A DNA stretch of 64,000 nucleotides. Source: a virus. This document shows positions 634 through 53,200 of this stretch, one piece after another. The stretch is from the IMG/VR virus record IMGVR_UViG_3300045988_012220, positions 32,001 through 96,000 of that record; one strand, written 5' to 3'. The translations under genes and the position numbers were made by a program. Under the pieces are notes generated by a model. The model ran no database searches, had not been told where the DNA came from, and saw only the letters and a list, made by a program, of their open reading frames with translations. Positions within the stretch are counted from its first letter, which is position 1. The number at the start of each line of letters is the position of its first letter.

Positions 634-645
634 AAAATAAAAACT

Positions 646-669
646 AACGTTAAAAAAGATTTTAACGTT
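646..669 (+). terminator. hairpin after the fibre gene (AACGTTAAAA / TTTTAACGTT, loop AAGA)
   Basis: Perfect 10-bp inverted repeat starting 13 nt after the TAA stop. The downstream T tract is only short. Confidence 0.45.
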
Positions 670-884
670 TAAGCTAGGTCTTAATGGAAGCATGACGGGG
701 CTCGCTGCCCCGCCTAGCACAACAGATTCTACCACGCCTCCTTCCAAATGCGTACCAGGGTAGGACTTTTATCACTCCTAGGTGGAATATACTAGGACAC
801 GCGTAGCAATACGCTTATATTTAACGGGACTAGGATTAATCCAGTCCTAGTTCCATATTGTTTTACTTTTAAAACTTAAAGACT
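670..884 (+). other. structured CTAG-rich intergenic element (candidate ncRNA or regulatory leader)
   Basis: About 215 nt with no convincing ORF and locally GC-rich. Hairpins at 696-712 (CGGGGC/GCCCCG), 801-814 (GCGTA-GCAA-TACGC, a GNRA loop) and 827-847. CTAG occurs six times, with repeated TAGGAC/ACTAGGA motifs. Confidence 0.35.
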
Positions 885-1697: not shown

Positions 1698-1718
1698 TTA
1701 AGTTTTAAATTATATGTG

Positions 1719-1740
1719 AGGGCTCCTTCGGGAGCCTTTA
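1719..1740 (+). terminator. rho-independent-type terminator (GGCTCC-TTCG-GGAGCC + TTT)
   Basis: GC stem with a TTCG loop followed by T residues, 22 nt after the stop. Confidence 0.6.
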
Positions 1741-1760
1741 CATAATAAATATGACATAAT

Positions 1761-2264
1761 ATGGCATTTAAAGATGTAAAACAAAATTATTCAATTTACA
1801 TATTGAATAAACAGGATATATCTATTACCGATGGTAAGGTTATATCAGTTGGCTTTCCTCACATGGATTTGAATAACAAACCAACTATTGGTCAGTCTTA
1901 GATGGTTATCGATGTAACTATAGAGTCCAATGGTAAAACTGCGACATATACAATTCCAGAAAATCTTTCTGTTACATACGCAGGAGACATTGTGCTTTCT
2001 ACAGACAAACAAGGACTTATAGCAGAAGTTGAATCCATGAAGAATACTGCTGAAAAGATTCTTGAATCTGTTCCAAAGCAGAAAGAGGTTGTCGAAAAAG
2101 CAACATCTTTGCTATCTGATCTTAATCCAATATACAAGGAAAAGAAGGAGACTGAGTAGCGATTTGCTAAGATAGAAGAAACTATCAACAGAATGGAATC
2201 AACTGTAACTAACTTTATTAATTCGTTTCACAATGGACAAGGTAATAGTAATACGGCATAGTGA
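1761..2264 (+). CDS. hypothetical protein (167 aa)
   Basis: ATG 1761 is in frame with track ORF 1902-2159. TAG is read through at 1899, 2157 and 2259. The gene ends TAG-TGA (2259-2264). Confidence 0.65.
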
Positions 2265-2718
2265 TGAAGAATTGCCAAATACAAAGTATACTGCTAATGT
2301 GAAAAAGAACGAAGATGGCAGTTATACAGCTAGCCTAGATATTTCAAAGTAGAGCGATTACAAAGATTATGTAAATAAAAATGGATTACATTTTACAAAG
2401 TCGTTACAAGAATATGCTAGCAAATAGATGGTTAATTCAAATGGGTTAGAACATACATGGACTCCAGAACAGGTTCAAAATGTATGTAATGTTCTCAATT
2501 TAAAGATACCAAGTACATCAACAATATATGATGTTACATATACAGCAAACATGGCTTACGCTGATTTCTATCCAGAGCTGCTTACTGAACACTAGTGCGT
2601 TAAGTATGCAATGGCAGTTGCAAACGATGAAGATGGATATGAAGGAATATAGTTTTGTAGATGGGTTGCTGATGTGATGGCAAAGAATGAAAATATAGAT
2701 TGGGAGAAATTTAAGTAA
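2233..2718 (+). CDS. hypothetical protein (161 aa)
   Basis: ATG 2233 in frame 1 is open to TAA 2716-2718 with four in-frame TAG. It overlaps the previous gene by 32 nt. Confidence 0.5.
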
Positions 2719-2796
2719 TCTTTAACTGTGGCGTTTTAGACGTAGTCTTCAATGACACCACAGTACTATAATTAATAATAATTTAAACGAATTAAC

Positions 2797-5577
2797 ATGA
2801 CTGAATTACTATCATAGAATGATTAGGTTATCGAGAAGAAACCAAATCCAATCGAAGAGCTTAATACAACGATGGCTTAGTATTATTCTGTATTACATTC
2901 TAAGATTTATAATCACGAGAGTAATACTGATATACACGTAACTTCAGATGATAAAAACACCTGGAATAATAAAGCCAATTAGTCTGATTTAGAATCTGTT
3001 AAAGAATATGCTGATAGTTTAAAGTAGTCTTTAGATAAAGTTAAGCCAGATATAATTAAGGAAGTCGAGACTATGATAGATAATAGTAAAGACATTAATT
3101 TATCTGACTACGCCACAAAGGTTTATGTAGACGCTTAGATTGATGCGCTTAATATAAGTGATGACATTGCTACAAAAACATGGGTGTCAAATAACTTTGT
3201 AAACTCTACAAATTATCAAAGATTTGATTCTACAAAGTATTATACAAAAGATGAAATTGATAATAAAATTGCAGGAGCAAATGTAGATAACTATCAGATA
3301 ACGGAATTTAGTTTGGCTAATAACTATCTTAACCTTACATAGAACAACGGTATATCAACACAGGTAAAACTGTCTGATGTATCTGGTGGAGCAATAACTA
3401 GCGATAATTTGGATAGAAAGCTATAGGACTATTTAAAGATATCTGCTATAGGAAACATTACGTTTACTAGAGGAGGAAGAATAGTTACGACATGGAATCC
3501 TGCTGCAGAAAATGCCACCGTGGAACTTTCTGGAGGAAGTGGATCAGATTCTTAGAGTGGAGGATATTATAAACCATACTTTAAGAATTATCCGTCAGAT
3601 GACAGCTTACCTACATCACAATTACCTGTAGTTGGATAGGATCCAGTAAATGCAGGATGGAGCTCTGTTAACGTAAACCCAGAACAAGGATACTTTACAT
3701 GGGAGATATGGGTATACATTAAAACCGGTGGTGGCTTTGGTGATATCATTGGTCCAGTTTGTATTTCTGGAAAAGACGGAGACAATGGCTCAGATGCTAC
3801 TGGAAAAGAATATATATATCAGCTAAATAATAATCAACCTACAAAGCCAACAATAAAACCAGCGTGGGGCGATGTTCCAGCTGGGTGGACTGATAATCCT
3901 ACAGGTATAGATTCTACTCATCGTGCAGAATGGATGATGTATAGAACATAGGACCCAGATGGAGTTATAAGTGATTGGCTTCCAGCTAAGGGCCCTGTAA
4001 TTTGGGCTCATTGGGGTAAAGATGGAACAGATGGTGATGGTGTGCAATATATATTCTGTGCTTTAAAACCTGGTGAAACAACAGCTGTATTTACAGGCGT
4101 AAATGATCCTACATCGTGGACAAATGATTCTGGCTTTTAGAATGGAAAAGCTGGAGAATACATTAAACCAGGATCTAGATGGACAGATAACCCAATAGAT
4201 ATTAAAACAGCAGTTGGTTATGGTTAGGGATCAAGCTAGTATGTAAGCATAAGAAGATATAGAGGATCTACAGGAAGTGCTGAAGATAATGACGGAAAGT
4301 GGCTGACATATAGCGAGCCTAGCTTGTGGACATACATGGCAAAGGATGGAGAAAGCTCCTCCCAGACATTAAAAGGATCGCCTTTAAGAAATAGAGGTGT
4401 ATGGCAGACTGGTGTACAATATTTTGATGGTACAACCTAGTCTGATGGAGGATTGTTTTATTAGGACTTTGTATCATACACTCATTCTGTAGTAGCTGAT
4501 GGAGCATCTAAGAATGTTACAGATTTCTACGTTTGCAAAAAACAGTGTGCAAGTATTGTCCCTACAAATACTGATTATTGGGATAAGCTTAGTGATATGG
4601 GTCCAATATACACTGACGTCCTTGTCGCTATGAAAGCATACATAAAAGAGCTTACAGCAGAAGAAGTTATAATCACAGATAACGAGAACATCGTAGCTGG
4701 TATGACTTCTGGCAATTCTGACAAAGTTTCATCTCAGGGCAATGTGAGAATATGGGCCGGCACAAATGATAAAAATGCTAGCAATATAGCTGAAGCTCCA
4801 TTTACTGTTACAGATAAAGGTGTATTAACATGTAGAGGAAACTATGGGAATATTATATTAAAAGACGGTACGATTTATTTCATAGTCGGCGGAGTAGAAT
4901 ATAAGTTAGGTATAACTAATGGCAAGCCAGATTGGATTAATAGTGCTGGAGCTGATTCAGTTGAACAATGGTATACTAAGGTTGAAACAGAGCACAACGT
5001 TTCATTTAGCGCTATTGATTCTTTTAGCATTAAAGACAACATTTATTATACAAGTGGTACAATGTCAGATATGGTAAATGGTACATATTATAAACGCGCA
5101 TCAAAAATAACGTGTTTGTACAATATTAGCGAGGGTGTTGTATTTACATTTAAAGACACATTTGGAATAGATATATATATCAAAGCAACATTTTCTAATG
5201 GTATTAAAGCAGTAGAAGGTGCAGTTGCTATCAGTGGATATGCTACTACAACGTCTACACCTACTTAGGACATTCCTGGAAAAATAAATATAGATACAAC
5301 TAGCAAATAGTGGTGTTCTATAGAGAAAGAAAGCAAGGATAGTTTGCCAAGTATGTATTATACAAAGGATACTCCTGTAGGTAAATTACACGAAGCTAGT
5401 TATCGTTCAGTTGATGATAGAAATATTACATATGGAAGTGGTACAGAAGATGGTATATATGTAATAAAGCCAGCGCCAAAAGAAACTGTAAGCACAGATA
5501 GAAAAATATCAATATTTGTCGACGAGTCTTCTGAGTAGAATGTATTTAAACCAACAGTAACAACAGTATCATTATAA
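2797..5577 (+). CDS. tail fibre / spike protein (926 aa)
   Basis: ATG 2797 is in the same frame as track ORFs 4597-5268 and 5344-5538. Only TAG interrupts the frame and the stop is TAA 5575-5577. Contains fibre-like motifs such as WTDNPTGIDSTHRAEWMMYR and WGKDGTDGDG. Confidence 0.8.
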
Positions 5578-6086
5578 TGTTTGACATAGTACAGAATAAG
5601 ATACAGTTAAGTACAGAAGATTTAGCTATACCACCATTTAAAGACTTCTATAATAATGCAAAAGATAAGCAAGACGCATTAAAGAAGATAGAATTCATAG
5701 TGTGGAGATATAAATGGAATAGCCCATATGAGGCATACCCAGAGAAAGAGCGCACATGGAGAGTAGCTAAAGATGTACTTAATGATGAGAATTACAAACC
5801 TGATGACGTTGTAAAAGAATTAGCAAAAAGGTTTCAGGAGTTTCAAGAGACTCCTGCTACCCGCCTGCTTAAATCTTCTAAGAGCGCAGCAGAGGGCATT
5901 ATGAACACGATGGATAGCTATGCTGAAGAAGAGCTTGATATAGATACAGCTAAGAAGCTTTCTGCTATATTAAAAGATGTTAGCGGTATTATCAAGTCGT
6001 TAGACATGGCTACGAAGTAGGCAAAAGCAGAACAAGCAGAAACCGGTAGAGTCAAGGGTGGTGGCGTTATTGGTATGTACGAATAA
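5577..6086 (+). CDS. hypothetical protein immediately upstream of terL (small-terminase position), 169 aa
   Basis: The ATG overlaps the previous TAA (TAATG). One in-frame TAG at 6018. Stop is TAA 6084-6086. The function is suggested by position only. Confidence 0.7.
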
Positions 6087-6088
6087 TT

Positions 6089-8152
6089 ATGATAGACTTT
6101 AATTAGAAGCTCCATGATACTGATAAATTCAGATAGGCGGCTATCTTCTTTCAGCAACATGGATGTTATACCTTAGCTCCTAGAGGTACTACTGATTATA
6201 ATAAATATTGGGAGCAAGAGACAGATAGATGCCTTAACGGTTATACAGCTCCAGATGGAGAGGGTATAACTGGATACAACTACTTCTATCTAAATTATAG
6301 TCCAATCATGCGACTTAAGGAAGAAGAGTATACTGATAGAGAGGGTAACCTTAGAAAGAGAAGATAGCGTATACTTGAATTCCCTAGTTTTTGGGACTAT
6401 GATTACTATTATTTTTGCGCTATAGAACAAGCAGAGTTAGAAGGTAAACATATGGCTGTGCTTAAGTGTAGACAGAGAGGATACTCATTTAAGGGAGGAT
6501 CGATGCTAGTTAGAAACTATATGCTTATACCAGGCTCGAAGAACTTTGCTATAGCATCAGAGTAGAAATTCCTTATAGGTGATGGTTTGTTAACTAAAGC
6601 CTGGCAAATAATGGACTTCCTTGATAAACATACAGCGTGGGCTAAACAAAGACTTGTGTCTACACGTATGGAAAGAACATCAGGTTATAAGATTACCGAT
6701 GAGTTCGGTAAGTAGACTGAGCAAGGATACTTATCTAGCATAACAGGTATAACACTTAAGAACGACCCAGAGCGTGTGCGTGGTACTCGTGCTAAACTTG
6801 TACTATGGGAGGAGGGAGGTAAATTCCCTAGTCTTCTTGATGCATGGCGTATAGAACAACCTTCAGTAGAAACCGACGATGGTAAAGCGTTCGGATTGAT
6901 GATAGTTTTTGGAACTGGAGGTACCGAGGGATCGTCTTTCGAAGGATTGAAAGAATTGTTTTATAAACCTAAATCTTACAATGTTCTCAGCTTTCCTAAT
7001 ATATGGGATGAAGGTAGAGAGAGTACAGAATGCGGATTCTTTGTTCCAGCTTATTCAAACCTAGAATCATTCGATGATGATGGTAATTAGGTATATATGG
7101 ACAAGGATGGTAATAGCTACAAAGAGAAAGCTATAGAGAACCTTATAGATCAGAGGAATAAAGTAAAGGACGGTGGTGCTAGCTAGCAATCTATAGACCG
7201 TTTTATATCAGAGCGCCCTATAAAGCCAGCAGAGGCTGTATTGGAGCTTGGTAAGAACATATTCCCTAGAAAGTTATTGATGGACCAGCTAACAAGAATA
7301 AGGACCAATAAGAAGCTTCAAAGCATGAAGCATATAGTTGATCTAGAATGGGATGGGAATGGTCAGGTAAAGGCTACAGAAAAGCCTAGTGGGGATATAA
7401 CTAACTATCCTCTTAAGAAGGGCGATAAGCCTCATGGATCTGTAGTTATATGGGAGTACCCAGTAAAGGATCCGCCGCATGGTTTATATATAGGAGGATG
7501 TGACCCATATGACCACGATGATAGCTTCACAAACTCACTTGGTTCTACATTCATATTTAAGCGTGTGAGAGCTGGTGAAGCTTGGACAGATGTAATAGTA
7601 GCAGAATATTCTGGAAGACCAGATACAGCAGAAGAGTACTATGAGAATGTACGCAAGCTACTTACGTTCTACAATGCTAGATTATTATTTGAGAATGAAA
7701 GAAAAGGAATCTACCCTTACTTTACGAATAAACACTGCGATTACCTCCTGGCTGATTAGCCAGATAAAATCATATCTGAAGTCTTTAAAGACAGTAAAGT
7801 ACAAAGAAGAAAAGGATGTCACATGACCAAACAGATTAGGGCATATGGCGAAGGATTGATATTAGAGTGGCTATTAGATGAATTTGAAGAAGGTCACCCT
7901 AATGTAGAAAGAGTATACAGCGAACCTCTAATAGAAGAGCTTATAGAAAACGATGGTGTACGAAACGTAGACCGTGTTATAGCTTTATGTATGGTAATGA
8001 TATACAGAGAGGAGCTCTATTAGGTAAAGGTGTCGTCTGCAAAAGAACAAAACAAATAGGTTGAACTCTTCGAGATGCCGTTATTTAGCAAACAATGGTT
8101 TGAAGAAGATAGCAGCACAAGTGAAGACGGTATGCCGATATTCACATTTTAA
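6089..8152 (+). CDS. terL: terminase large subunit (687 aa)
   Basis: ATG 6089 is in frame with track ORFs 6776-7090, 7241-7759 and 7823-8023. Contains ATPase-like KCRQRGYSFKGG and KLVLWEEGG motifs plus a nuclease-region FGTGG. Stop is TAA 8150-8152. Confidence 0.9.
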
Positions 8153-8155
8153 TAC

Positions 8156-10639
8156 ATGGAAGATAACTTATACAATTCAGCTTTCCCCAGACAAAAGCTC
8201 CCTCTTTCAAAGAAAGGAAAGAAGTGGCAAGAAGACTGCGTTAACTATATTATAGGTGAAGGTAACGTAACGTCTGGAGGAAATAGTACATCATATTACG
8301 GAGAGCTGTAGACCTATTATAACTTATATAACAGCATCTTCGACGAGAAGGATTTTAAATCAATTACAAACCCATTCAAGGTCGAGGATGGTTTTCCTGC
8401 TACTCCTCACGACTTTAATATCATTAGACCTAAGGTAGATTTGCTTATAGGTGAGGAGACAAAGAGACCTCTTAATTTCAGAGTCATCAGAACTTCATAG
8501 GAGGCTACATCAGAAATGCAGGAGAAAGAGAAGTAGATGATTCTACAATACATAGAAGCAGCTATCACAGCCAGAATGAGTCCAGAAGAGGCCCAATAGT
8601 TTCAGGAGTAGCTACAGTCTGGAGAGGTTATGCCACCAGAGTAGATAGCTAAGTATATGGACAAAGACTATAAAGATATTGTAGAGAATACAGCGTATCA
8701 TACGCTTACATATCTGAGAGAGAAACTTGATCTTGACAATGAGTTTATCAAAGGCTGGAAAGATGGATTGATCTCAGGTAGAGAAATTTATTATGTTGGC
8801 GTACTTAATGCAGAGCCATATGTTGAAAGAGTTAATCCTATATACTTCTCTTATGACAAGAGCCCAGACTTGGAGTTTGTTGAGGATGGCTCATGGTGCT
8901 GTAGAAAGATGCGTATGCCTATTACTGAAGTATACGATAGATACTACGATAAGCTTGAAGAGAAAGATCTTGACAAGCTTGAGGAAATGATTGGTTCTAC
9001 TCCTGGTAGAAATCTTGGAGATAGAAGCCCTGTTGATATGGGTATACAATTACGCATATACGATAACCCTATATTCGAAGGAGCCGGTAAGTCCCTTGTA
9101 AACGTATGGCATTGTTGCTGGAAGTCTTTCAAGAAGATCTTCTACGTAACTACTACAGACGATGCAGGATAGCCTCAGATTAACATAGTTGATGAAACGT
9201 ATCAGCCTGTTGGTAATGAGATTAGTGTAGAACCAGATTGGATTGTAGAGGTATGGGAAGGATATAGAGCTGGTAGTGACTTGTACTTTGGTATACAGCC
9301 TATTGAATACCAGCACGTAAGTATTGATAACCCTAATAGCTAGAAGCTTCCTTATTGTGGAGCTATTTATAGTAACACAAATAGTAAGCCTAGATCATTG
9401 GTTAGTATTCTTAAGCCATTACAGTACATGTACATTGTATTGTGGTATAGACTTGAGTTAGCTATTGCTAGAGACAAGGGCAAGGTTGTTAATATGGATA
9501 TTACATAGATTCCTAAGTCTATGAATATTAGCCCTGCTAAGTGGATGCATTACTTGTCTAGCGTTGGCGTTAACTTCATTAACCCATACGAAGAAGGCTG
9601 GAATATCCCAGGAAGAGAAGGTGGTAAGCCTGCATAGTTCAATCAGATAACAGCTTTGGATCTTACAATGTCTAACGTCATAGCTGAGTATATACAGCTT
9701 ATGGACAAGATAGAGGAACTTGCTGGTACAATCTCTGGTATCACAGCACAGCGTGAAGGAGCTGTAAGTTCATCAGAAATGGTAGGCAATGTAGAGAGAT
9801 CAGTTGTACAGAGCTCCCATATTACAGAGCCATTATTCTGGGTTCACAACCAGTGTAAGCGAAGAGTACTTAACATGCTCCTTAATACAGCTAAGGGTGC
9901 TTGGGAAGAGACTGGCAAAAAGAAGCTCCAGTACATCTTTGACAATGGAGAAAGAGCATTCTTGGACATTACTCCTAAGTTCTACTATGAGGATATGGAT
10001 GTCTTTGTAAGTGATACATCTAAAGATCTTGAGAACATATAGAAGCTTCAGCAGCTTATACAGCCAGCTATGCAGAATGGTGCTAGCTTACTTGAAGCAG
10101 CAGAGATTCTTACAAACGATAACTTTAACATCATTAAGCAGAAGCTTAAGGATATGTAGACTAGACAGGAGCAGATGCAGCAACAGCAGCAAGAGGCAGA
10201 GGCTCAGCAGCAACAGCAGTTGCAGCAGATGCAGAATGAAGCTAAATAGCAGGAGCTTATGTTACAGGAAGCTCAGATGGATCTTCAGAGATATCAGATT
10301 GATCAAGATAATCAGACAAAGATAGCTGTAGCATAGATTAATGCTTATCGTGGAACTGAAGATATGGATCAAAACGATAATGGAGTACCCGACGTTGCAG
10401 AGCTTGGCAAACAGGCTCTTGAGCAGCAAAAGATTAATCAGGAGGCTTATAATAAGCGTTATGAAGCTAAGTAGAAGCGTGAGATAGAAGATTAGAAGAT
10501 CTAGCTTGAGAAGGATAAAATGAAGCATGAGACAGAGCTGTAGTCTCAAAAAGATAAAGCTGCGATGGAAAGGGAATAGCTTAAAGCTAGAACCGCCATC
10601 CGCAATAAAACGAATGCGGAAGCTGCTAGAGGTAAGTGA
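8156..10639 (+). CDS. portal protein (827 aa)
   Basis: ATG 8156 is in frame with ORFs 8657-9172 and 9656-10042. I counted about 19 in-frame TAG by hand. The C-terminus is a Gln-rich coiled coil. Stop is TGA 10637-10639. The gene sits directly after terL. Confidence 0.85.
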
Positions 10640-10641
10640 TT

Positions 10642-11664
10642 ATGAAGTTTGATAATAAGACATTTTAGCAGAAGTATGAGGCGTGGAAGAATGGCGCTGA
10701 TTACTGGAAGGATATTAGAGGAATAAACTTGGGTGGAGACGCCCAGGCTGAGGAACCTAGCCCAGAAGAGCAGTAGTAGATTGATTAGAATGTATAGTCT
10801 ATACTTAATGCTTATAATGAAGGTAAAGATGTTAATATAGCTGAAGATATTATTAAACCATTACCTTTTGATACTCCATTAAATGAAGAACATCCAATAC
10901 TGCACAAATACAAAGGAGGTAAAAATGATTCTATTAATACTTTTGTTAACAGAATGGGCCCTCTTGTAGGACAATAGTTAAATAGATACGGATATGGCGA
11001 TACTGCGTTTTACAATGTAATGCGTTAGCTTGCATATGAATCAAACTACGGAAGGTCAAGAGTCGCTAGACAATAGCATAATTATGGAGGAGTAGGATGG
11101 AACGGCAAGACTTACACTACATATAAGAGTGACGCAGATTTTGTTAAGGACTATGTGAGGCTTATGCATAATAGATACGGAGCTGCGCTTAGAGCCAAAT
11201 CTACATAGGATTATGCAAGAGCCCTCAAGCAGAAGGGATATTATACAGATTCTCTAGAGAATTATTCTAGAAACCTTCGAGGAATGGATAGTTTAGTAAA
11301 GGCGGCTCATTACCACAGGAATGCACATAAAGATGCTTACAATTATAATGTTAAGCTTGATGATCTTGTATAGGATTATGAAGACGCAAAGAATACTAGC
11401 CCTATAATTATTAATTCCCCTTCTACAAAGTAGCCTAGTACTGTCAGAGTAGATGTTCCAGCAACTTTACTTGGTCCTACTTAGGAAGAGATTAAGGCTT
11501 AGCAATAGCGCGATCTTGATAAGTATAAACAGTAGATGTATAATAATATAACATAGCCTTCACTTCCGAACATACTTGATCTACTTCCTTAGAATAACTT
11601 TGGTAAAGATTCTTATGGCTAGAAGTTCTGGTAGAGAAGAGGAAATAATCTTAAACTAATGTAA
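10642..11664 (+). CDS. virion protein with a glucosaminidase (FlgJ/PF01832-like) peptidoglycan hydrolase domain (340 aa)
   Basis: The segment LAYESNYGRSRVARQQHNYGGVGW...YARALKQKGYYTDSLENY resembles the glucosaminidase family signature. Includes tandem TAG-TAG at 10774-10779. Stop is TAA 11662-11664. Confidence 0.7.
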
Positions 11665-11666
11665 TT

Positions 11667-13559
11667 ATGACACAGATGGAAAGTCCTAAGCGAAAGATGC
11701 AGAAGAAGAATGACTATCAGCGTCATAAGCTCTTTCGTAAGATTAAACGTAGAAGAAAAGCATAGGCTGAAGCAGAATAGCAGGTAGCTGAGAAATAGCT
11801 TAGAAAGAAACTTAAACTTCCTAAGTTTGGTGATGGTAAAGAAATAAAATCAGATGCAGGTGCTCCTTTAGAAGTTAAAGACGGAATGCTTTACTACAAG
11901 GAGACAGGGGAGCCATTTTATAATGCTGGGTTACAGTTACCTGAAGTAGAAGTTGTCGGAGATAAATCAAAAGTTAATCCATGGGCTGCTGCTGGTAGGC
12001 ACAATACGTCTTCATATTGGGATCCTAATGGTGTTGTTCATGGTTTTGATAAATCAGTAGAAGCTGCAATAAAATATCCAGCAATGATTGCAGAACAAAA
12101 CGGATACGATACATCTGGATATTACGACAAGGTCAACAAGATCGGGAAAGCCATGACAGTTTTATCGCCGACTAGATGGATTGGAACTTTGCGCGGAACA
12201 GGAATGCCATGGGAAGAGAGCAATTAGGGACTTTATGGCGGTTATGGAGAAACTGGAAGAGCCGCAGATTAGTTGTTTGATATAATGATAGGATCTAAGA
12301 TCGGTGAAAAATTTTCTGATAAAATTTAGAGCACCAAAGAATTGCTTGAATTATCAAAAGAGAATCACAATCCATTTAATAACGCTTTCACTAGATCTGT
12401 GTTATATAGTTATCTTCCTCCTGCTTCTTATTCAGCAAAAAAACTTGTTGCTCCAGCTCTTGCGTGGCCATATTATGTTTTAAAAGGTAGTGCACCAGAT
12501 ATTAATAAAGCGTTTTGGACTTAGAATAATTTTGCTGGCAAAGCTCTTAAAAATGTTTTTGAAAAAGCATATAATGTAGATGGAGATGTTGCTTTATAGG
12601 CAAGAGCTAACGCATATAGGAGGTATTTGAAATTGCCGCAATCTGGAGACTATCGATTTACATAGTCTGCAGCTGATGGAACAAAATTAACCAATATAGA
12701 TGCTTTAAAACAATTAAAAGGAAAAGGCTATGGTGGTGGAGCTAGAGATATAGAAGTAGTTAACGCTGGAACACCATTCGTTGATAAAGACTTTATTACT
12801 AGTGCCGGTGGAAACGTATCTGTTTCAACTAAATTGTTAAATAAAAAGCCAATAGAAGGCATTATAAAAGTAAACGATACTTGGGATTTAATGCCTGGAT
12901 AGAGAATAAATAAAAAGATATCTAATTTCTTTAATGAGTACAGAACTAAGTCTATAAATAAATTTGGCACGAGATTAAAATCCAAATCAAAAGACTTTAT
13001 CGGATATAGAAATTAGGACTTATTTGATAGAATGGATTACCCAGACTGGATGACAATAAGTCAGAAAATAAAGCTATCAGACATCATAGATAAAGGTGGC
13101 GCTACTAGAACGGCTACAAATAATAGTGGGCTAAGAGGAATGCTTGGTAGATCTGGAATAAAACTTGGAGATTATTTGTAGAATTTCAATTATAAAAATA
13201 CAAATCTTTATAATTATTTGAATAATTTGGAGGTTGGTAAATATATTGGCGCAGAACCATTTGATATACAATACGATCTTCCGTTCCATATTTAGGATCA
13301 TAAAATAAACATTGGTCTTGGTAGAACTCCAACTCCACTAGAAAATAAGATATATCCACAGCTTTTGCAATTTCATAATTCCGGTAAAGATATACATATA
13401 AAGAAATCTAAGCGTGGCACATTTACCAAAGCGGCTAAACAACATGGTATGAGTGTATAGAGCTTTGCTAATAAGGTTCTAAAGAATCCAAGTAAGTATA
13501 GTTCAGCTATGAGAAAGAAAGCCAACTTTGCACATAATGCAGCTAGTTGGAAGCATTAA
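11667..13559 (+). CDS. hypothetical virion protein (630 aa)
   Basis: TAATTATG junction at the start. In frame with ORFs 11886-12227 and 12342-12524. Stop is TAA 13557-13559. The C-terminus is basic (KRGTFTKAAKQHGMSVQSFANKVL...). Confidence 0.75.
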
Positions 13560-14844: not shown

Positions 14845-16648
14845 ATGAATAATTCAAGTTCTTTATTAAATAATCTTCAGCTCTACCGTGGTAAGCGTTT
14901 TGCTGACTTGGTAGACGAAAACATGATTGCTAATGCAATGCTTACAAAGCCTCATGAAGTAGCAGGCTTGTTGTCATTGGTTTTTGGTACAAAGGATGAT
15001 GGTATTTCAACTACCATCGACTTGTTAACTGGTGGTCTTGGTTCAACCATGACTATCGAAAACAGAGAGTATGAGTGGTCTGTAATGATTGATGCTGACC
15101 ACGCTGTTAATATCCGCTACGCTAAGTGGAATGGTAAGGAGATTACTCCTAAGTCAATTACAGATGGTTTGACTCCAGGTATTAACAATACTCCTATTTA
15201 TCTTGGTCTTGAGGAGAAGTTCTTCGGACCTGGAGCAATCCTTGCATTTGATAACATCAACTTCCAGGTACGTGTAAACGGTACTCCATACCAGGATGGT
15301 AGCACATGGGTATATGAGACATATGTAGCAGAAGGCTTCCAGGGTTCTTATATCCCTTGTGAGTATTTGCTTCCAGGTCGTCAGGTAGACCGTATCGGTT
15401 CTGCATACGAGGAGTACAGTGATGAGGCAGATATCATCAACTATCAGACTCCATTTAAGATGCGTAATAGCTTGATGACTATGCGTCTTACTTACGATAT
15501 CACAGGTGATGCTTACTCTACAGTATTGGCTATCGCTTTGACTGATCCTGAGACAGGTAAGAAGTCTTATTTGTGGTCTGACTATCAGTATTGGAAGGCT
15601 CTTCGTGAGTGGAAGAAGAGAGAGGAGAAGCAGTTGCTGTTCGCTCACTCTAACCGTAATGCAGATGGTACTTACAATTTGAAGGGTACTAATGGTCGGT
15701 TCGTTCCAATCTCTGCAGGTTTGTTCGAGCAGATTGCTCCAGCTAATGTACGTTACTACACCAAGCTGACTACAGAGTTGTTCGAGGATTACTTGTTCGA
15801 CCTCTGCTATAACATTATCGGTACTAACGAGCGTAAGTTCGTTGCTTTGACTGGTGAGATGGGTTAACTTTATAGCTCCCTGTAGCAGTAATGTTACTTG
15901 AAAATCTATTTAATTTCTGGGAAGCCCAAACGTTTAAGTCGTGGGTAATCAGAAGCGAAGTCTCGAAAGAGAAACGTTCAACGACTATCCGAAAGGAGTA
16001 GGGTTCAAGCGAACCCGAAATGATAGACATCCTAATTGGGATGAAGATATAGTCTGATCTCATATGAAAGTATGAGGGCTTTTAATGATCGCAATAAAGC
16101 CAATCTGTAGTAGCGATACAGGTTAAACATAAATGATTAGAGAGTTCGATCGTATTTTGAAGGAGAAGGCAGCTAGCTTTAACATGATTGATACACACTT
16201 CATTACAGGTTCTGGTCAGGACTTGAAGTTGGGTGGTCAGTTCACAACTTACACTATGACCAATGGTATTGAGTTGACAGTTAAGCGTTGCGCTATGTTT
16301 GATAACATGGAGATGTTCCGTCAGCTTCATCCATTGACAGGTAAGCCATTGATGTCTTACACATTCTTGTTCGTTGACCTCGGTCGTCGTGACGGTCAGG
16401 CTAACATCGTTAAGGTATGTCGTAAGGGTCGTGAGTTCGTACAGTGGTGCACTGGTGGTTCTGTATTGCCAAATGGTTATGCAAACAACATCAACACTAT
16501 GCGTTCTAACAGCCGTGATGGTTACCAGGTACACTTCCTTGGTGAAGAGGGCATCATGTTGAGAAACCCATTGTCATGCGGTATCTTGTACTGTGATGCT
16601 GAAGACCAGGAGTCTATTGCAGTTGAGAACAGAGCAGCAGAGCTCTAA
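14845..16648 (+). CDS. major capsid protein, split by a group I intron (exons 14845-15864 and 16136-16648, 510 aa)
   Basis: Two TAG-free ORFs of 340 and 170 aa flank a structured 271-nt insert. They join in frame as ...LTGEMG|IREFDRIL.... A strong terminator follows. Position (scaffold upstream) and size fit a capsid protein. Confidence 0.8.
15865..16135 (+). ncRNA. group I self-splicing intron (ORF-less) in the capsid gene
   Basis: Carries the R element GTTCAACGACTA and the S element GAAGATATAGTC, giving P7 as GACTA/TAGTC. Has a GNRA hairpin TCTC-GAAA-GAGA and a P9-like hairpin CTCATA...TATGAG. The 5' exon ends in T and the intron ends in G. Removal restores the reading frame. Boundaries are good to within a few nt. 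Confidence 0.8.
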
Positions 16649-17480: not shown

Positions 17481-17494
17481 TAAACTAACGACGT

Positions 17495-18211
17495 ATGACG
17501 CACAGTGATATTTATACTAAGTTTATGATTGAATATGACAAGGCAAATATAACTTCGTCATATCCGTCGCTAACTGAATATGAAATTGCAACAATATTAG
17601 ATAAAGCATACTTAGCTTTAATAGCTCAAAAATTAACAGGGAACAACCCAAGAAGATCTGCTTTTGAATCTGATGTTAAAGCAATTGAAGATTTAAGACC
17701 ACTAATAAAACAAGCTTTATTGCATGGAGAACATAGCAATGTTGTTACAAATGAATATATTTATTCATTAAACATACAAGATTATCTGTATTACGTTTCT
17801 AGTACAATATCATTAAATGCTAATAATAGTTCTATAGATGATCAGAAACATATAATTCAGTCAGTAGATCTCATATCTCACGACAATGCAAATAAGTTCA
17901 AGTCTACATCAACTAATTTACCTTGGGTTAAGAATCCTGTATGCTATATAAATGATAAGCTTATACACGTTTTAATTGACCCGTATGACGTTAAAAATAA
18001 CAAAGGTGATATGGTGTTAGGCTTAACATATATAAAGTCTCCTGCTAAATTTGTAAAAGGGACAAGTTTGGTTGATTTTGGAGATACTGAATTAGAGATA
18101 AACGACACCGTGGCTGAAGAGCTTGTTAATTTAGCAATTATAATGTCTACTGAGATTGTCGAATCCAGTAGATTATCTACTAAAACAAATACTAGACCAC
18201 TAGAATCATGA
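17495..18211 (+). CDS. hypothetical structural protein (238 aa, TAG-free)
   Basis: Intact ORF. The TGA stop overlaps the next ATG (ATGA). Confidence 0.8.
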   Translation: MTHSDIYTKFMIEYDKANITSSYPSLTEYEIATILDKAYLALIAQKLTGNNPRRSAFESDVKAIEDLRPLIKQALLHGEHSNVVTNEYIYSLNIQDYLYYVSSTISLNANNSSIDDQKHIIQSVDLISHDNANKFKSTSTNLPWVKNPVCYINDKLIHVLIDPYDVKNNKGDMVLGLTYIKSPAKFVKGTSLVDFGDTELEINDTVAEELVNLAIIMSTEIVESSRLSTKTNTRPLES

Positions 18212-19661: not shown

Positions 19662-19744
19662 GATAAGAATAATTTTAACGTGGAAAGCCCAGCTGGTTAG
19701 GTCCAGTATAATTAATTAGGGTGAGTAGAAAAAATTAATATATT

Positions 19745-20869
19745 ATGATTACATATGTAAATACCGTATTGGTATCAAATAATGGTGGTGATACACTCGC
19801 TACAAAGGAAGAGCTTGCAGGCAAGCAGAAGAAGGGTGATCTCAAAGAGTTGGTTGGTAAGCTCGTATTTATGAATTGCGACCCAGCTGCTCAGGATGGT
19901 TCAAACATTGAGGATATTTATGCAGTTGATGAGAACTGTGATAGATTTAAGATTGGCGTTGTAACTAGTGATAGTTTCCAGAAGGCTGATAAGATGGGTA
20001 ATGTAACATATATTCCTGTTGTTAAGTGGTCAAATATTATTAACGCAGCAGACATTAAGTCTATTACAAAGCTCGACTACAAGGACGATACAGAGGATAC
20101 AATCTCAATTGACTTCTCTACAATTCCTGCAGAGACTTTAGATATCCTTTCAGCAGGTGGTTGCCCTGTAGTACTTCGTCTTACTTTTAAGGATATGCCT
20201 ATGCGCTATCGTAAGTGGACTGAGTCTTATAGCTACGTAACAATGCCTGGTGATGGTATTCAGAAGATTATGCAGGGTCTTGTTAAGGATATTGTACGTG
20301 CTTCAAAGCGTCAGCGTGTATACGCAAAGATCGATGGTACTAAGCTCGTTCTTGAGGCAATGAAGTACGATGATGATGAGCAGGCTGTAACAGAGAATGT
20401 TTATGCAAAGGTTCGCTTTGATGCAAATGCTTATTGGATGAATCCACAGGCTCCAGGTTGGGCAGCTAATAACAAGTATGATCTTGGTGTTAAGTTTGTT
20501 AAGCAGGAAGGTGTAACTTATCCTGCATCAGCAAAGCTTGTACGTGATCGCGAGCGTTCAGCATTTGATTATCAGGGTGTACTTCATCGTTGCTGCTGGT
20601 ATGATCCACAGCCTAACATGGTTACAAATATTGACAACCATTACGGGGGTATTACTATCGAGTTCGAGAACCAGTATCATACAGCTGATGATCTCTGGCG
20701 TAGAACAAAGCAGACAGTAGAAATTTATGCTTCTGACAACGGCACAGAAATTGGTGCCGCAGAGATTGGCAATGGCCTCTTGGCTAAATTGGGCAAGATG
20801 GTTGCTAATCGTCAGAACATCGCTAACCCAGTTAGCAATTCAACTGCGTACGACGGTACAAAGTATTAA
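19745..20869 (+). CDS. abundant-looking virion protein (374 aa, TAG-free)
   Basis: Intact ORF followed by the strongest terminator in the window. Codon usage resembles the capsid gene. The exact role is not recognised. Confidence 0.85.
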   Translation: MITYVNTVLVSNNGGDTLATKEELAGKQKKGDLKELVGKLVFMNCDPAAQDGSNIEDIYAVDENCDRFKIGVVTSDSFQKADKMGNVTYIPVVKWSNIINAADIKSITKLDYKDDTEDTISIDFSTIPAETLDILSAGGCPVVLRLTFKDMPMRYRKWTESYSYVTMPGDGIQKIMQGLVKDIVRASKRQRVYAKIDGTKLVLEAMKYDDDEQAVTENVYAKVRFDANAYWMNPQAPGWAANNKYDLGVKFVKQEGVTYPASAKLVRDRERSAFDYQGVLHRCCWYDPQPNMVTNIDNHYGGITIEFENQYHTADDLWRRTKQTVEIYASDNGTEIGAAEIGNGLLAKLGKMVANRQNIANPVSNSTAYDGTKY

Positions 20870-38276: not shown

Positions 38277-38283
38277 TTAAATT

Positions 38284-50200: not shown

Positions 50201-53200
50201 GTACAAGAAATGCTAATAAGAATCTTATAGACGCTCTTACGTATAATCCATAGACATGCTCAATGAATGCGCCTATTGCGTCTACTGCTGATGCAAGTTG
50301 GATGGAGTCTATGCTTATATCTGCAGCTAATAAAGATATTATTGACATCATGACTCCTGGTAGCTCATTTATTCAGAGATCAGTCTTTGCTATAGAAGGT
50401 AAAAATGGCGAAGGTAATATATAGGGACAGGAGATCTATAATGGTAAGAGATTATAGATGATAAATAAAGAGGGCTCTATGGATGCAGTAATATCTATAG
50501 ATTACTTCCAGGATATTCTTCCGAAAAACTTGTCTTACAACGAGGCTAGACAATGGCTCTTGGATCATAATATAATTGGAGAAAGTGCTACATCTAATAC
50601 GATCGGTTATCGTATTCCTACACAGGCTCAGTCATCTATACATGCTTTACGTTTTGTAGATGTTGTACCTGCTGTCAAATCCACGGTAATACTTCCAACT
50701 GAGTTTACCAAGATCACTGGTTCGGATAAACTATATCAATGTTCAAACCAGTATAATATAAAAAACTCCTTTAATTGCTGGGAACTCCATATCAAGTGGA
50801 CAATCAGCAGCCAAGCCCATTATGGGAAGGTTCAACGACTATCGAAATCATAGTATAAGAGAAACACTTATACGAAGAAGAGAGTAGAGTACACGAAAGT
50901 GGAAATGGGGAGCTTTTAGTATATGGTAATAGTATACTAATTGAAGATATAGTCTGATCTCATTGGTAACAATGAGTTAACAAAAATGTTTGATATCGAC
51001 CATCTTTATTTAGCACGTTATAACGTTAATGAGAGTGGTGGTTATGAATTTGATCCAGAAAGTGCAGAAGGATTACAGAATAGTATTATCGAAAGCATTC
51101 TTACAGTACTTAAGGATAAAAAGTCACTTAACATCTTGTATAAGTCTATCGATAATGATACTGAGCTTGTAACAAGCATAGCTGATGAAATCCCAGAACA
51201 GGGTAATACGAAGAGTGTAGCATACAACTTTGGTACATTACATGAATAGGTTACTCGTAAAAATGACTACATTACAGGTAAGACTGGTATCGGTCCATTT
51301 GCGTTGAATGTAACAAACCATATTCTTACAACATTATATGGCGTTAAATTTAAAGAGTCTAGCTTTACACAAATAACAGGTATTACTGGTTTTGATTAGA
51401 TTCTTGACGAAGATAATAATCAGATTTCATCTTGGTTATCAGCATTTATTAATGCCCACGTAGATATTGTGAAAGATCCATATATATCTAAGCTTAATGT
51501 AAACGGATTTACGTACAATATGATTAACTTGCTTGCTAGAAATGGCAAGGGTAAACAAGGTCTTTATTTCTTGTGTTAGCCTATAATTAGAGAGATGGCT
51601 AAAGCTGATATAGATACTAAGTCTCAGTTTACTAGAGATCCTAAGGTATTTAGATCTGCTTTCGAAATGAGGGATAAGAGATTAGCTGAAATATTCCCTA
51701 GCGTTACCGGTAAGACAATAGACGATTAGTATATTAAAGATGCTACAGAACTAAATAAATCTAAAGGCGAACCTGCTAGAAGGGCTGAGATAGTGAACTC
51801 TGTACTCAACAATATGGATATGCTTTAGAAGATAGCTAAGAATCCGGATTTAGTCTATGCTTAGACAGAAGAGGGAGAAAAAGCTAGAGCTTTCTAGGTT
51901 AATTGCTACATAGCATGGAAGTGCCTTGAAAAGTATTCTAATGCATTAAATAGTTTGGTACAGTACACTAAGATTGACACTCGTAAACAGGGTAAGAATT
52001 TCCTTGAAATGCAAGCTTATCTTAGAGGTTATGAGAATCTTACAAACCCAGAAACTGATTAGCTGTTTGATATGGATTCTATCAACAATCTTATACATGG
52101 TACTTGGATTGAGCAGAAAACAAGAGACGCTATTCAAGAACCCATGAGAGTTATGGCTGGACAATCATTCTAGGGTACACCTTAGTTTATGGAGTAGCTT
52201 ATCAATTTATCCGACGACTTTAAGTATAAAACAAACGACAGAGAGTCTGATTTACTTAGAAATGCTAAGACTATGAAGAAAATATCATAGGCTGCTAGTA
52301 GTTAGATTAAGGCTAGATATGCTGTTAGATTAGCTAAATCTTTAGGTATTGATATTAAAGGTTTGTTCGACGGGAATGCTACAATATTTGACAGACTTAA
52401 TTCTATATAGGCTTGCATACAGAGAGATGCATATGGTTTAGGTAGATTAAAGGATAATTATCTATTATCGCATCTCGCTCCATATATTTAGGATTAGGAT
52501 GTTTTCGTAAATGGAAAACTTACCAATAAGCCTAAATTTATAAGTGTTATTAATAGTATGGATGAAAGTAAAATGTCTGCTGATATGTTTATAGAGTCTT
52601 GGGAAGAACTTCTCAATGACCAATAGGCTAATGTAAGAAGATTTGCAAATGATCTTATATTGTATGCAATGCTTACATCTGGTGACACAAAAGGCTTTAA
52701 TAAAATAGCCAAATACATTCCTATGAGTTGGCTTGAAGTTAGACACGATGAGAGCACCGTACCATTCTCTGATTATATTAGGGAACAACTTGAGGCTCCG
52801 GAAATTGATCACGATCTTATAGCTTAGAACAACTATATGGATAGCGATTTGGTGAGCAGGGCTACATTCAAAGATTACTATTATGCTTTCAATGCTTAGT
52901 ACTCTCCTGCTGTAATAATTAGTAAGGATTCTCACGAACACGACGCTTTGTATATATCAGTACGAAATGATGGAGCGGTATATAGTGATCCAACGTCGTA
53001 CACATTGTATAAAAAGGTTGGAGAAGCTATGATTAATGGATCCAAACGTGCTGTATATGCGTTATTACCTAAGAGGGGATGGTCCGATAGAGATGGTCTT
53101 AATATATACGAAGCAGGTGATATTAATCTTAGTGTAAATGGCATTCCTATGAGTCAAGAAGTCATTGAAAGTCAGCTTGATAAACTTATGACTTACTTGA

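What the first reader, a model, noticed from the sequence alone, without database searches (positions are those of the whole stretch)
15865..16135. Group I intron splitting the major capsid protein gene
Two TAG-free ORFs (340 aa ending ...LTGEMG, and 170 aa beginning IREFDRIL) are separated by 271 nt. The upstream ORF stops at TAA 15865, and another TAA sits directly before the track's artefactual ATG at 16133. The insert carries GTTCAACGACTATCC and GAAGATATAGTCTGATCTCAT, a TCTC-GAAA-GAGA hairpin and a CTCATA...TATGAG hairpin. The 5' exon ends in T and the intron ends in G. A possible short P1 pairs GGGT with GCTC at intron position +11. Production of the most abundant virion protein would then be gated by splicing.
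Basis: partly seen in the sequence, partly recalled or inferred. Interest (0 to 1): 0.8.

Follow-up and report, generated by a model that had tools for sequence, protein, structure and literature searches.

The report
Self-splicing intron in crAss-like capsid gene
The 271 bases that split the major capsid protein gene of this crAss-like gut phage are a real group I self-splicing intron with no gene of its own, but such introns in capsid genes of this phage group were already reported in 2021, so it is well proven rather than surprising.

Summary
Window 15865-16135 (271 nt) is a group I intron: Rfam RF00028 scores 93.2 bits against a cut-off of 50. Near-identical capsid genes of crAss-like phages cr7_1 and cr124_1 (Burzaovirus, Suoliviridae) lack exactly these 271 nt. 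Joining 15864 to 16136 gives a gap-free 510-aa capsid protein (...LTGEMG|IREFDRIL...; Pfam Crass_capsid, 690 bits).

I mapped all the helices: P1 with a U.G pair at the 5' splice site, P2-P9, P7.1/P7.2 (subgroup IA type), P9.1/P9.2, a 5-bp P10, and the terminal G at 16135. Across 12 independent same-site copies, 99.9% of pair cells stay paired and six pairs show compensatory double changes.

The intron has no ORF. It is present or absent among otherwise recombining genomes. It is tightly linked to synonymous exon changes at +3, +4 and +6, which create P10, and at +15 and +21.

Splicing is obligatory for capsid production. Nothing shows that it is regulated, so "gating" is unsupported.

Yutin et al. 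2021 already reported group I introns in capsid genes of this (Delta) group. This is therefore a new, ORF-less member of a known kind.

A second group I intron (50728-50988) splits the virion RNA polymerase gene inside its DxDxD catalytic motif.

The parts
14845..15864 (+). Major capsid protein exon 1 (codons 1-340, ...LTGEMG). It contains no TAG codon.
   Evidence: ORF list. Pfam PF23898 Crass_capsid on the joined product. 96% nt / 99% aa identity to cr7_1 and cr124_1 'major head protein'.
15865..16135 (+). Group I intron, 271 nt, without an ORF, subgroup IA-like. It begins with an in-frame TAA and ends with the terminal G.
   Evidence: Rfam RF00028 93.2 bits. Exactly these bases are absent from intron-less alleles. 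Stops in all frames. The same 271-nt insert occurs in 11 other assemblies.
16136..16648 (+). Major capsid protein exon 2 (codons 341-510, IREFDRIL..., stop TAA 16646-16648).
15861..15878 (+). P1. Exon GGGU (15861-15864) plus intron UA (15865-15866) pair with the internal guide UAGCUC (15873-15878). The U15864.G15875 wobble marks the 5' splice site.
   Evidence: Rfam alignment. MFE fold. All 6 pairs are invariant in 12 copies.
15868..15872 (+). Guide-sequence strand of P10 (CUUUA). It pairs with exon 2 bases +3 to +7 (UAGAG, 16138-16142).
   Evidence: Read from the sequence; 5/5 pairs in all 12 copies. Three of the five pairs are made by the intron-linked synonymous changes at +3, +4 and +6.
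15882..15897 (+). P2 hairpin, GUAGC/GUUAC.
15905..15910 (+). P3 5' strand UCUAUU. It pairs with GAUAGA at 16022-16027 and forms a pseudoknot with P7.
   Evidence: 6/6 pairs with seven different sequences in nine related introns..
15915..15977 (+). P4-P5-P6 domain. P4 is UUCUGG/UCAGAA (15915-20 / 15949-54). P5 is CCCA/UGGG (15925-28 / 15942-45). P6 is GCG/CGU (15955-57 / 15975-77). P6a is UCUC-GAAA-GAGA (15961-15972).
15983..16054 (+). Catalytic core. P7 is GACUA (15983-87) with UAGUC (16050-54). P7.1 is UCC-GAAA-GGA (15988-97). P7.2 is GGGUUC-AAGC-GAACCC (16001-16). The P3 3' strand is at 16022-27. P8 is CAUCCU/GGGAUG (16028-43).
   Evidence: Compensatory changes occur in P7.2 and P8.
16059..16124 (+). 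Peripheral 3' domain. P9 is CUCAUAU-GAAA-GUAUGAG (16059-76). P9.1 is GGCUUU/AAAGCC (16077-82 / 16096-101). P9.2 is AAUCUGUA/UACAGGUU (16102-09 / 16117-24).
   Evidence: Compensatory double changes occur in P9.1 (1) and P9.2 (2).
16135..16135 (+). Terminal G (omega G), the last base of the intron.
   Evidence: Exact deletion boundary in intron-less alleles. Invariant in 12 copies.
50728..50988 (+). Second, related group I intron (261 nt, no complete ORF of its own). It is not part of the finding. It splits the virion RNA polymerase gene between TGSD and FDID.
   Evidence: Rfam 87.1 bits. cr124_1 has a contiguous TGSDFDID. Homology to phi14:2 gp66 RNA polymerase, PDB 6VR4.

Best explanation
Window 15865-16135 is an ORF-less group I (subgroup IA-like) ribozyme intron. 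It sits between codons 340 and 341 of the major capsid protein gene of a Burzaovirus-like crAss phage (Suoliviridae, the 'Delta' group).

Proposed mechanism:
1. The gene is transcribed as one pre-mRNA. A ribosome reading unspliced RNA stops at the TAA that forms the first three bases of the intron.
2. The intron folds into the P1-P9.2 architecture.
3. An external guanosine bound in P7 attacks after U15864, which is held in the U.G wobble of P1.
4. P10 (intron 15868-15872 with exon 16138-16142) then aligns the 3' exon.
5. The free 3'-OH of exon 1 attacks after the terminal G16135.
6. This ligates GGT|ATT and produces mRNA for a 510-aa capsid protein.

Shown here: the ribozyme architecture, its conservation with compensatory changes, the exact boundaries and the intact joined reading frame.

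Inferred from the established chemistry of group I introns: the catalytic steps and self-splicing itself.

The element is best seen as a selfish or near-neutral passenger that is obligatorily spliced, not as a regulator. It is polymorphic (present or absent) in natural populations and travels with a short tract of flanking exon sequence.
For: - **Model match.** RF00028 matches full length (model positions 1-253) at 93.2 bits against a cut-off of 50.
- **Exact boundaries.** cr7_1 and cr124_1 capsid genes are 96% nt / 99% aa identical and lack exactly these 271 nt. The site ATGGGT|AT (GEMG|IREF) is the same in all 77 intron-less alleles in which the motif was located.
- **Intact product.** The joined product matches Pfam Crass_capsid at 689.9 bits in one stretch. 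It aligns ungapped across the junction with phiCrAss001 gp32, PDB 7QOF.
- **Independent fold.** The unconstrained MFE fold recovers P1, P2, P4-P9.2, z = -2.9.
- **Same-site copies.** Across 12 copies from independent assemblies, 99.9% of 800 pair cells are paired, against 34-48% when partners are slid. Six pairs carry compensatory double changes, against 0 in the slid controls and 0/500 shuffles. Every stem substitution keeps pairing and the rest fall in loops, including GAAA to GAGA in P9.
- **Related introns.** In nine related introns P3 keeps 6/6 pairs with seven different sequences, and P6, P7.2, P8 and P9 refold with different sequences.
- **Exon linkage.** The only near-fixed differences between 11 intron-bearing and 18 intron-less alleles over 1533 nt lie at -54, +3, +4, +6, +15 and +21. 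The changes at +3, +4 and +6 turn three P10 mismatches into pairs.
- **Abundance.** The allele is common: the exact exon-2 ORF occurs on 64 contigs and the exact exon-1 ORF on 54. An essential gene could not persist this widely if the intron did not splice.
Against: There is no direct evidence of splicing: no RNA reads, no RT-PCR and no junction peptide. P1 has only four exon base pairs (GGGU/GCUC), two of them wobbles, so in vivo splicing may need help, for example from translation or chaperones. The intron has no homing endonuclease gene, and no NUMOD4/HNH-type homologue occurs in the 64-kb window, so how it spreads is not shown.
Confidence: 0.93

Rival explanations
1. The intron is a regulatory gate. 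The phage uses conditional splicing (dependent on GTP, folding, translation or a protein cofactor) to time or dose capsid protein production.
For: Splicing is obligatory for the full-length protein. The in-frame TAA at the first intron codon truncates any unspliced translation product. The capsid gene is unusual among late genes in having no recoded TAG codon, so its expression does not depend on the suppressor system.
Against: Closely related phages (96% nt identity in this gene) lack the intron, as do most alleles. The 'gate' is therefore dispensable. All four combinations of this intron and a second capsid-gene intron exist, which is typical of selfish presence/absence polymorphism. No sensor-like extra domain is present, only standard IA helices. 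A related intron sits in the RNA polymerase gene, which fits spread of a selfish element into conserved sites.
Confidence: 0.06
2. The intron is currently mobile. It spreads between co-infecting phages by homing driven by an endonuclease supplied in trans (for example the NUMOD4/HNH enzyme of the upstream capsid-gene intron in relatives, or a free-standing one) and drags a short co-conversion tract with it. This concerns how it spreads and is compatible with the best explanation of what it is.
For: Linked exon markers are confined to -54..+21 around the insertion site, while the rest of the gene is shuffled between intron-plus and intron-minus alleles. The same intron with the +3, +4, +6 and +15 markers occurs in a lineage whose exons are only 88-89% identical, yet the intron differs at only about 7% of positions. 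HNH-bearing introns of the same family occur about 630 nt upstream in some relatives.
Against: No endonuclease gene lies in or next to the intron, and none of that type occurs in the window. The marker pattern is equally explained by a single old insertion followed by homologous recombination, plus selection for P10 pairing. Lower intron divergence can reflect structural constraint.
Confidence: 0.3
3. There is no splicing. The capsid protein is made as two separate polypeptides (340 aa and 171 aa, the second starting at ATG 16133) that assemble non-covalently. Alternatively the gene is a pseudogene or an assembly artefact.
For: Gene callers and GenBank records annotate the two pieces as separate proteins. 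An ATG lies at 16133.
Against: The spacer is a full-length, structurally conserved ribozyme with compensatory changes, which a passive spacer would not maintain. The break falls in the GEMG|IREF motif, identical in all 77 intron-less alleles where it was located, and inside a continuous stretch of the solved capsid protein. The ATG is formed by the last three intron bases, including the terminal G. The same structure appears in at least 12 independent assemblies, which excludes an artefact. The exons stay 99% identical in protein, which excludes a pseudogene.
Confidence: 0.02

Closest known systems
Group I introns in major capsid protein genes of Delta-group (Suoliviridae) crAss-like phages (Yutin et al. 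2021, PMC7886860; review PMC10136315)
   Same: Same phage group, same host gene and same intron class. [quoted passage not shown] The public genome cr131_1 has its 'major head protein' split by an HNH endonuclease gene.
   Different: Those introns were found through their endonuclease domains. This one has no ORF, so that approach would miss it. It sits at codon 340|341, whereas the HNH-bearing intron of relatives sits near codons 128-133. Public records annotate its two exons as separate proteins.
Classical phage subgroup IA group I introns: SPO1-like Bacillus phage DNA polymerase introns, Staphylococcus phage introns, T4 td/nrdB/nrdD (the T4 and Twort comparisons rest on my own knowledge)
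   Same: 70-75% nucleotide identity over the core (intron positions ~22-212) to introns in phiNIT1/SPG24-type Bacillus phages and in Staphylococcus phages. It shares the IA hallmarks: P7.1/P7.2 between P7 and P3', P9.1/P9.2 extensions, and an in-frame stop right after the 5' splice site.
   Different: The host gene is a capsid protein rather than a DNA or nucleotide metabolism gene. There is no endonuclease ORF in any loop. The host phage belongs to Crassvirales and uses TAG recoding.
Short ORF-less group I introns of gut 'Jug' jumbo phages of Bacteroides/Phocaeicola (PMC12880540)
   Same: Same habitat and probable host phylum. Small ORF-less introns (~206 nt on average) interrupt essential phage genes, and splicing of many was confirmed by metatranscriptome reads. 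Contigs of 134-288 kb in IMG/VR carry introns that share an exact 28-mer of this intron's core.
   Different: Different phage lineage and genome size. The Jug introns are reported in terL, nrdD and DNA polymerase genes. Identity to the closest IMG/VR relatives is only ~80% over the core.
The second intron of the same genome (window 50728-50988)
   Same: Same family: 87.1 bits to RF00028, an identical 22-nt stretch TGAAGATATAGTCTGATCTCAT, the same ...AAAUG 3' end and no complete ORF of its own.
   Different: It has a different guide sequence and insertion site (virion RNA polymerase, TGSD|FDID). It has a longer P7.1/P7.2 region, no P9.1/P9.2, and a much longer P1 (11 of 12 pairs) and P10 (7 bp).

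Membership tests
Group I catalytic intron (Rfam RF00028) | Conserved core secondary structure and sequence (P3-P8, J6/7, J8/7) scoring above the curated threshold | tested here: met
   93.2 bits against a gathering score of 50. Model positions 1-253 matched, E = 1e-22 over the whole window.
Group I catalytic intron (Rfam RF00028) | P1 helix between the end of the 5' exon and an internal guide sequence, with a U.G wobble at the 5' splice site | tested here: met
   GGGU|UA pairs with UAGCUC, and U15864.G15875 is the wobble. The pairs are invariant in 12 copies.
Group I catalytic intron (Rfam RF00028) | Terminal guanosine (omega G) at the 3' end, and a P10 pairing that aligns the 3' exon | tested here: met
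   G16135 is the last base missing from intron-less alleles. P10 is CUUUA/UAGAG, 5 bp, in all 12 copies.
Group I catalytic intron (Rfam RF00028) | P3/P7 pseudoknot forming the guanosine-binding core | tested here: met
   P7 GACUA/UAGUC and P3 UCUAUU/GAUAGA are both fully paired. P3 co-varies in nine related introns. The G-binding pair itself is inferred by homology only.
Group I catalytic intron (Rfam RF00028) | Helices maintained by compensatory substitutions | tested here: met
   Six pairs with changes on both sides in P7.2, P8, P9.1 and P9.2. None in the slid controls and 0/500 shuffles.
Group I catalytic intron (Rfam RF00028) | Precise excision restores an intact host reading frame | tested here: met
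   Removing 15865-16135 gives a 510-aa protein that is collinear with intron-less homologues.
Group I catalytic intron (Rfam RF00028) | Guanosine-dependent self-splicing activity | not testable with these tools
   Needs an in vitro splicing assay or RNA junction reads.
Subgroup IA of group I introns (Michel and Westhof classification; criterion from my own knowledge) | Extra hairpins P7.1 and P7.2 between the 5' strand of P7 and the 3' strand of P3 | tested here: met
   UCC-GAAA-GGA and GGGUUC-AAGC-GAACCC occupy that position. They appear as a 31-nt insertion relative to the Rfam consensus, are folded, and P7.2 shows a compensatory change. Subgroup-specific covariance models were not available.
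Mobile (homing) group I intron | An intron-encoded homing endonuclease ORF | tested here: not met
   Stops in all three frames of the 271 nt. No NUMOD4/HNH-type homologue in the window.
Crassvirales major capsid protein (Pfam PF23898, HK97 fold) | Full-length match of the spliced product to the family model and to a solved member | tested here: met
   689.9 bits, residues 6-495 against model positions 2-495 of 496. phiCrAss001 gp32 (PDB 7QOF), E = 2.4e-30, ungapped across the junction.

The most novel reading that the evidence does not exclude
The capsid gene is one of the few late genes here free of recoded TAG codons and also carries an obligatorily spliced ribozyme. Splicing, which depends on folding and GTP, could therefore act as a checkpoint that times capsid synthesis independently of the suppressor-tRNA code switch. 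A weaker variant is that the ORF-less intron is actively homing in trans among gut Burzaovirus populations and drags a co-conversion tract of 21-54 nt.
Probability: 0.05. Interest if true: 0.6.

Novelty: new member of a known kind. Interest (0 to 1): 0.22.

Why it matters
The main value is practical. This common allele of the capsid gene, in a widespread human-gut phage group, is annotated in public records as two unrelated fragments (340 aa 'hypothetical protein' and 171 aa 'major capsid protein'). ORF-less introns like this one are invisible to searches that rely on endonuclease domains. Recognising them corrects gene models, capsid-based phylogenies and marker-gene counts for crAss-like phages.

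Biologically the locus is a clean natural data set for studying intron-exon co-adaptation and intron turnover in an uncultured phage population. It combines presence/absence polymorphism, a short linked exon tract and three synonymous changes that build P10. It does not change what is known about group I introns or about crAss-like phages.

Tried and rejected
- **Rfam on four relatives.** An Rfam gathering scan of capsid loci cr272_1, cr130_1, cr131_1 and Bohxovirus found nothing. The HNH-bearing capsid-gene intron of cr131_1 is not detected by the model, presumably because of its large ORF insertion. Absence of an Rfam hit there is therefore not evidence of absence.
- **IMG/VR capsid search.** The 80 loci kept from the capsid search were all intron-less at this site, and the exact 28-mer core search found no crAss capsid locus. 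The intron-bearing allele had to be found by exact look-up of the artefactual 171-aa ORF.
- **Spliced-junction scan.** The spliced-junction haplotype ATGGGTATTAGAGAGTTCGATCGTATT had no hit in JGI metagenome contigs. I found neither spliced-RNA-derived contigs nor precise-loss alleles carrying the full linked haplotype.
- **Intron 2 by megablast.** Megablast of the second intron region gave only a 122-nt piece. Its boundaries had to be set by tblastx against cr124_1.
- **Pfam on the RNA polymerase region.** No hit. Identity came from PDB 6VR4.
- **tRNA scan.** No suppressor tRNA lies in the window.
- **MAFFT alignment of nine related introns.** It was out of register in P3, P8 and P9, so I analysed helices by anchored segments instead.
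- **Rfam's P1 for intron 2.** I considered it and rejected it. It starts 37 nt too early, and the protein junction and a better P1 place the 5' splice site after 50727.
- **Own covariance model.** I did not build one. The same-site alignment plus explicit pair counting answered the question.
Full report
**1.

ORF 14845-15867 encodes 340 aa ending LTGEMG and stops at TAA 15865-15867. A TAA at 16130-16132 directly precedes ATG 16133. From 16136 the frame reads IREFDRIL... to TAA 16646-16648. The 271-nt spacer has stops in all three frames.

**2. It is a group I intron.**

A scan of the whole window against Rfam finds RF00028 at 15855-16076. The score is 93.2 bits against a gathering score of 50, E = 1e-22, with the full model matched. 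A permissive E-value scan adds no other family. The Rfam model ends at P9. The remaining 59 nt up to 16135 fold into two further hairpins, P9.1 and P9.2.

**3. The boundaries are exact.**

The window is a crAss-like phage close to Burzaovirus (cr124_1 and cr7_1; Suoliviridae, Oafivirinae), at 91-92% nt identity over the structural block. Their 'major head protein' genes are 96% identical in DNA and 99% in protein. They lack exactly 15865-16135: the alignment runs ...GAGATGGGT | ATCCGTGAG....

The joined 510-aa product has three further lines of support:
- It matches Pfam PF23898 (Crass_capsid) at 689.9 bits in a single stretch.
- It aligns without a gap across the junction to the solved phiCrAss001 capsid protein gp32, PDB 7QOF.
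- In all 77 intron-less IMG/VR alleles where the motif was located, the site ATGGGT|AT, protein GEMG|IREF, is the same.

**4. Anatomy (window coordinates).**

| Element | Sequence | Coordinates |
|---|---|---|
| P1 | GGGU\|UA with UAGCUC; U15864.G15875 wobble at the 5' splice site | 15861-15866 / 15873-15878 |
| P10 | CUUUA with UAGAG | 15868-72 / 16138-42 |
| P2 | GUAGC/GUUAC | 15882-86 / 15893-97 |
| P3 | UCUAUU/GAUAGA | 15905-10 / 16022-27 |
| P4 | UUCUGG/UCAGAA | 15915-20 / 15949-54 |
| P5 | CCCA/UGGG | 15925-28 / 15942-45 |
| P6 | GCG/CGU | 15955-57 / 15975-77 |
| P6a | UCUC-GAAA-GAGA | 15961-15972 |
| P7 | GACUA/UAGUC | 15983-87 / 16050-54 |
| P7.1 | UCC-GAAA-GGA | 15988-97 |
| P7.2 | GGGUUC-AAGC-GAACCC | 16001-16 |
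| P8 | CAUCCU/GGGAUG | 16028-33 / 16038-43 |
| P9 | CUCAUAU-GAAA-GUAUGAG | 16059-76 |
| P9.1 | GGCUUU/AAAGCC | 16077-82 / 16096-101 |
| P9.2 | AAUCUGUA/UACAGGUU | 16102-09 / 16117-24 |
| Terminal G | G | 16135 |

An unconstrained MFE fold recovers all of these except the P3 pseudoknot and P10 (z = -2.9). P7.1 and P7.2, lying between P7 and P3', are the hallmark of subgroup IA; that criterion comes from my own knowledge of the Michel-Westhof scheme. By distant blastn the core is 70-75% identical to introns of SPO1-like Bacillus phages (in DNA polymerase genes) and of Staphylococcus phages.

**5. The structure is under selection.**

An exact look-up of the artefactual 171-aa ORF (MIREF...) finds it in 114 blocks of the assembly collection. 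Ten loci were fetched, and all carry the same 271-nt insert at the same site. Their 2-7 substitutions either keep pairing (P3, P7.2, P8, P9.2) or fall in loops or a joining region. One of the loop changes is GAAA to GAGA in the P9 tetraloop.

A more distant copy (L110) sits in exons only 88-89% identical to the Burzaovirus alleles. It adds true compensatory changes.

I counted my 80-pair structure, including the pseudoknot and P10, on the 12 same-site copies:
- 99.9% of cells are paired, against 34-48% when the 3' partners are slid by 1-3 columns.
- Six pairs have changes on both sides: one in P7.2, two in P8, one in P9.1 and two in P9.2.
- None occur in the slid controls, and 0 of 500 shuffles reach the observed value.

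Eight related introns were compared, seven from other, larger phages in IMG/VR plus intron 2 of this window. The IMG/VR introns share the exact 28-mer GTTCAACGACTATCCGAAAGGAGTAGGG. All nine introns keep P3 at 6/6 pairs with seven different sequences. They refold P6, P7.2, P8 and P9 with different sequences.

**6. Population genetics around the site.**

I compared 11 intron-bearing and 18 closely related intron-less alleles over the 1533-nt coding sequence. The only near-fixed differences lie at -54, +3, +4, +6, +15 and +21 from the junction. Between-group divergence peaks in the 100-nt window that contains the junction: 0.085 between groups, against about 0.03 within groups.

The three changes at +3, +4 and +6 (ATC CGT to ATT AGA, both Ile-Arg) convert three P10 mismatches into pairs. 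This is read from the sequence and agrees.

This is the signature of an intron that moves, or is retained, with a very short flanking tract in an otherwise freely recombining gene. It also suggests exon-intron co-adaptation. It does not tell homing apart from one old insertion followed by recombination.

A few intron-less alleles (L082, L030, L031) also have ATTAGAGAG. The full linked haplotype without the intron was not found in JGI metagenome contigs.

**7. Mobility.**

The intron has no ORF. Some relatives carry a second, HNH/NUMOD4-bearing intron of the same family near codons 128-133 of the capsid gene. These are L104-L107, L077-L080 and cr131_1, where it is annotated 'HNH endonuclease' between two 'major head protein' CDS. 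All four combinations of the two introns occur. No homologue of that endonuclease is in this window. Trans-homing is therefore possible but not shown.

**8. How it works.**

Shown:
- the ribozyme architecture
- selection on that architecture
- the exact boundaries
- the intact joined frame
- the abundance of the allele; the exact exon ORFs occur on 54 and 64 contigs, which an essential gene could not sustain without splicing

Inferred from established group I chemistry:
- guanosine attack after U15864
- P10 alignment of the 3' exon
- attack of the exon-1 3'-OH after G16135

The TAA at the first intron codon stops ribosomes before they enter the core.

'Gating' is true only in the sense that splicing is required. 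Near-identical phages do without the intron, no sensor domain is present, and a sister intron sits in another essential gene. The simplest reading is a selfish, efficiently spliced passenger.

**9. Comparison with the literature.**

- Yutin et al. [quoted passage not shown] They identified these introns through endonuclease domains.
- The 2023 Crassvirales review repeats this (PMC10136315).
- Short ORF-less group I introns, with splicing confirmed by metatranscriptomes, are described in gut Jug jumbo phages (PMC12880540).

The kind, the host gene and the phage group are therefore already known. What is new is modest: this specific ORF-less intron at codon 340|341, which public records annotate as two separate proteins, and the linked P10-building exon changes.

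**10. Verdict.**

The novelty rating is 'new member of a known kind' and the interest is low to moderate (0.22).

Noticed in passing
window 50728-50988 (+): A second group I intron (Rfam 87.1 bits, 261 nt, no complete ORF of its own) splits the giant virion RNA polymerase gene (38281-54039; homologue of phi14:2 gp66, PDB 6VR4). The split lies exactly inside the catalytic motif TGSD|FDID (DxDxD), and cr124_1 has the motif uninterrupted. By hand its P1 is ACUGGUUCGGAU/GUUCAAACCAGU (11 of 12 pairs, U.G at the splice site) and its P10 is UUGAUAU/AUAUCAA. Rfam's own alignment starts 37 nt too early. A review mentions unexplained disruptions within DxDxD in Zeta-group RNA polymerases, and introns like this could explain some of them.
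   Followed up: yes
window, whole; e.g. 2782-13559, 29370-60731: TAG is read through (recoded) in the late and virion genes. ORFs of at least 150 aa cover 21.7 kb with the standard code but 70.4 kb if TAG is a sense codon. The rate is about 2.3 TAG per 100 codons. No tRNA gene lies in the window.
   Followed up: partly
window 14845-16648, also 19739-20869 and 17489-18211: The capsid gene has 0 TAG and 0 CAA but 16 CAG codons. About 11.5 TAG would be expected at the average rate, so P(0) is about 1e-5. A few other presumably highly expressed structural genes are TAG-free too. This suggests selection against recoded codons in the most abundant proteins.
   Followed up: partly
L104-L107 (about 1215-2111), L077-L080, L005 (cr131_1, 1027-1852): Relatives carry a different capsid-gene intron near codons 128-133 that encodes a NUMOD4/HNH endonuclease. 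Its 3' part is 79% identical to the core of the 271-nt intron. All four combinations of the two introns exist among genomes. The Rfam gathering scan misses this intron in cr131_1 (L005), the one such locus that was scanned.
   Followed up: partly
L082, L030, L031 (capsid gene, junction site): Three intron-less alleles carry the intron-associated exon sequence ATTAGAGAG right at the empty site. They could be precise intron losses or the kind of allele the intron first entered.
   Followed up: no
window 16089-16092 and 16113-16116: UCGC in the P9.1 loop is complementary to GCGA in the P9.2 loop, a possible loop-loop (kissing) contact. The only variation seen among the 12 copies is C to U, which keeps a G.U pair, so this is untested.
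   Followed up: no
window 16043-16064 and 50943-50964: The two introns share an identical 22-nt stretch, TGAAGATATAGTCTGATCTCAT (J8/7, P7 3' strand and the start of P9). Both end in ...AAAUG, so each creates a spurious ATG start for the downstream exon.
   Followed up: no
L109 (cr124_1 22-7902), L001/L002: Public annotation of relatives looks unreliable. The virion RNA polymerase gene is labelled 'DNA helicase'. The genes flanking the capsid gene are labelled 'RecX regulatory protein' and 'RecA protein', although they sit in the head-morphogenesis block.
   Followed up: no
L110 (ERZ1034687 contig, 431-701): The same intron at the same site occurs in a lineage whose capsid exons are only 88-89% identical to Burzaovirus alleles, yet the intron differs at only about 7% of positions. 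This is compatible with either horizontal transfer or strong structural constraint.
   Followed up: partly
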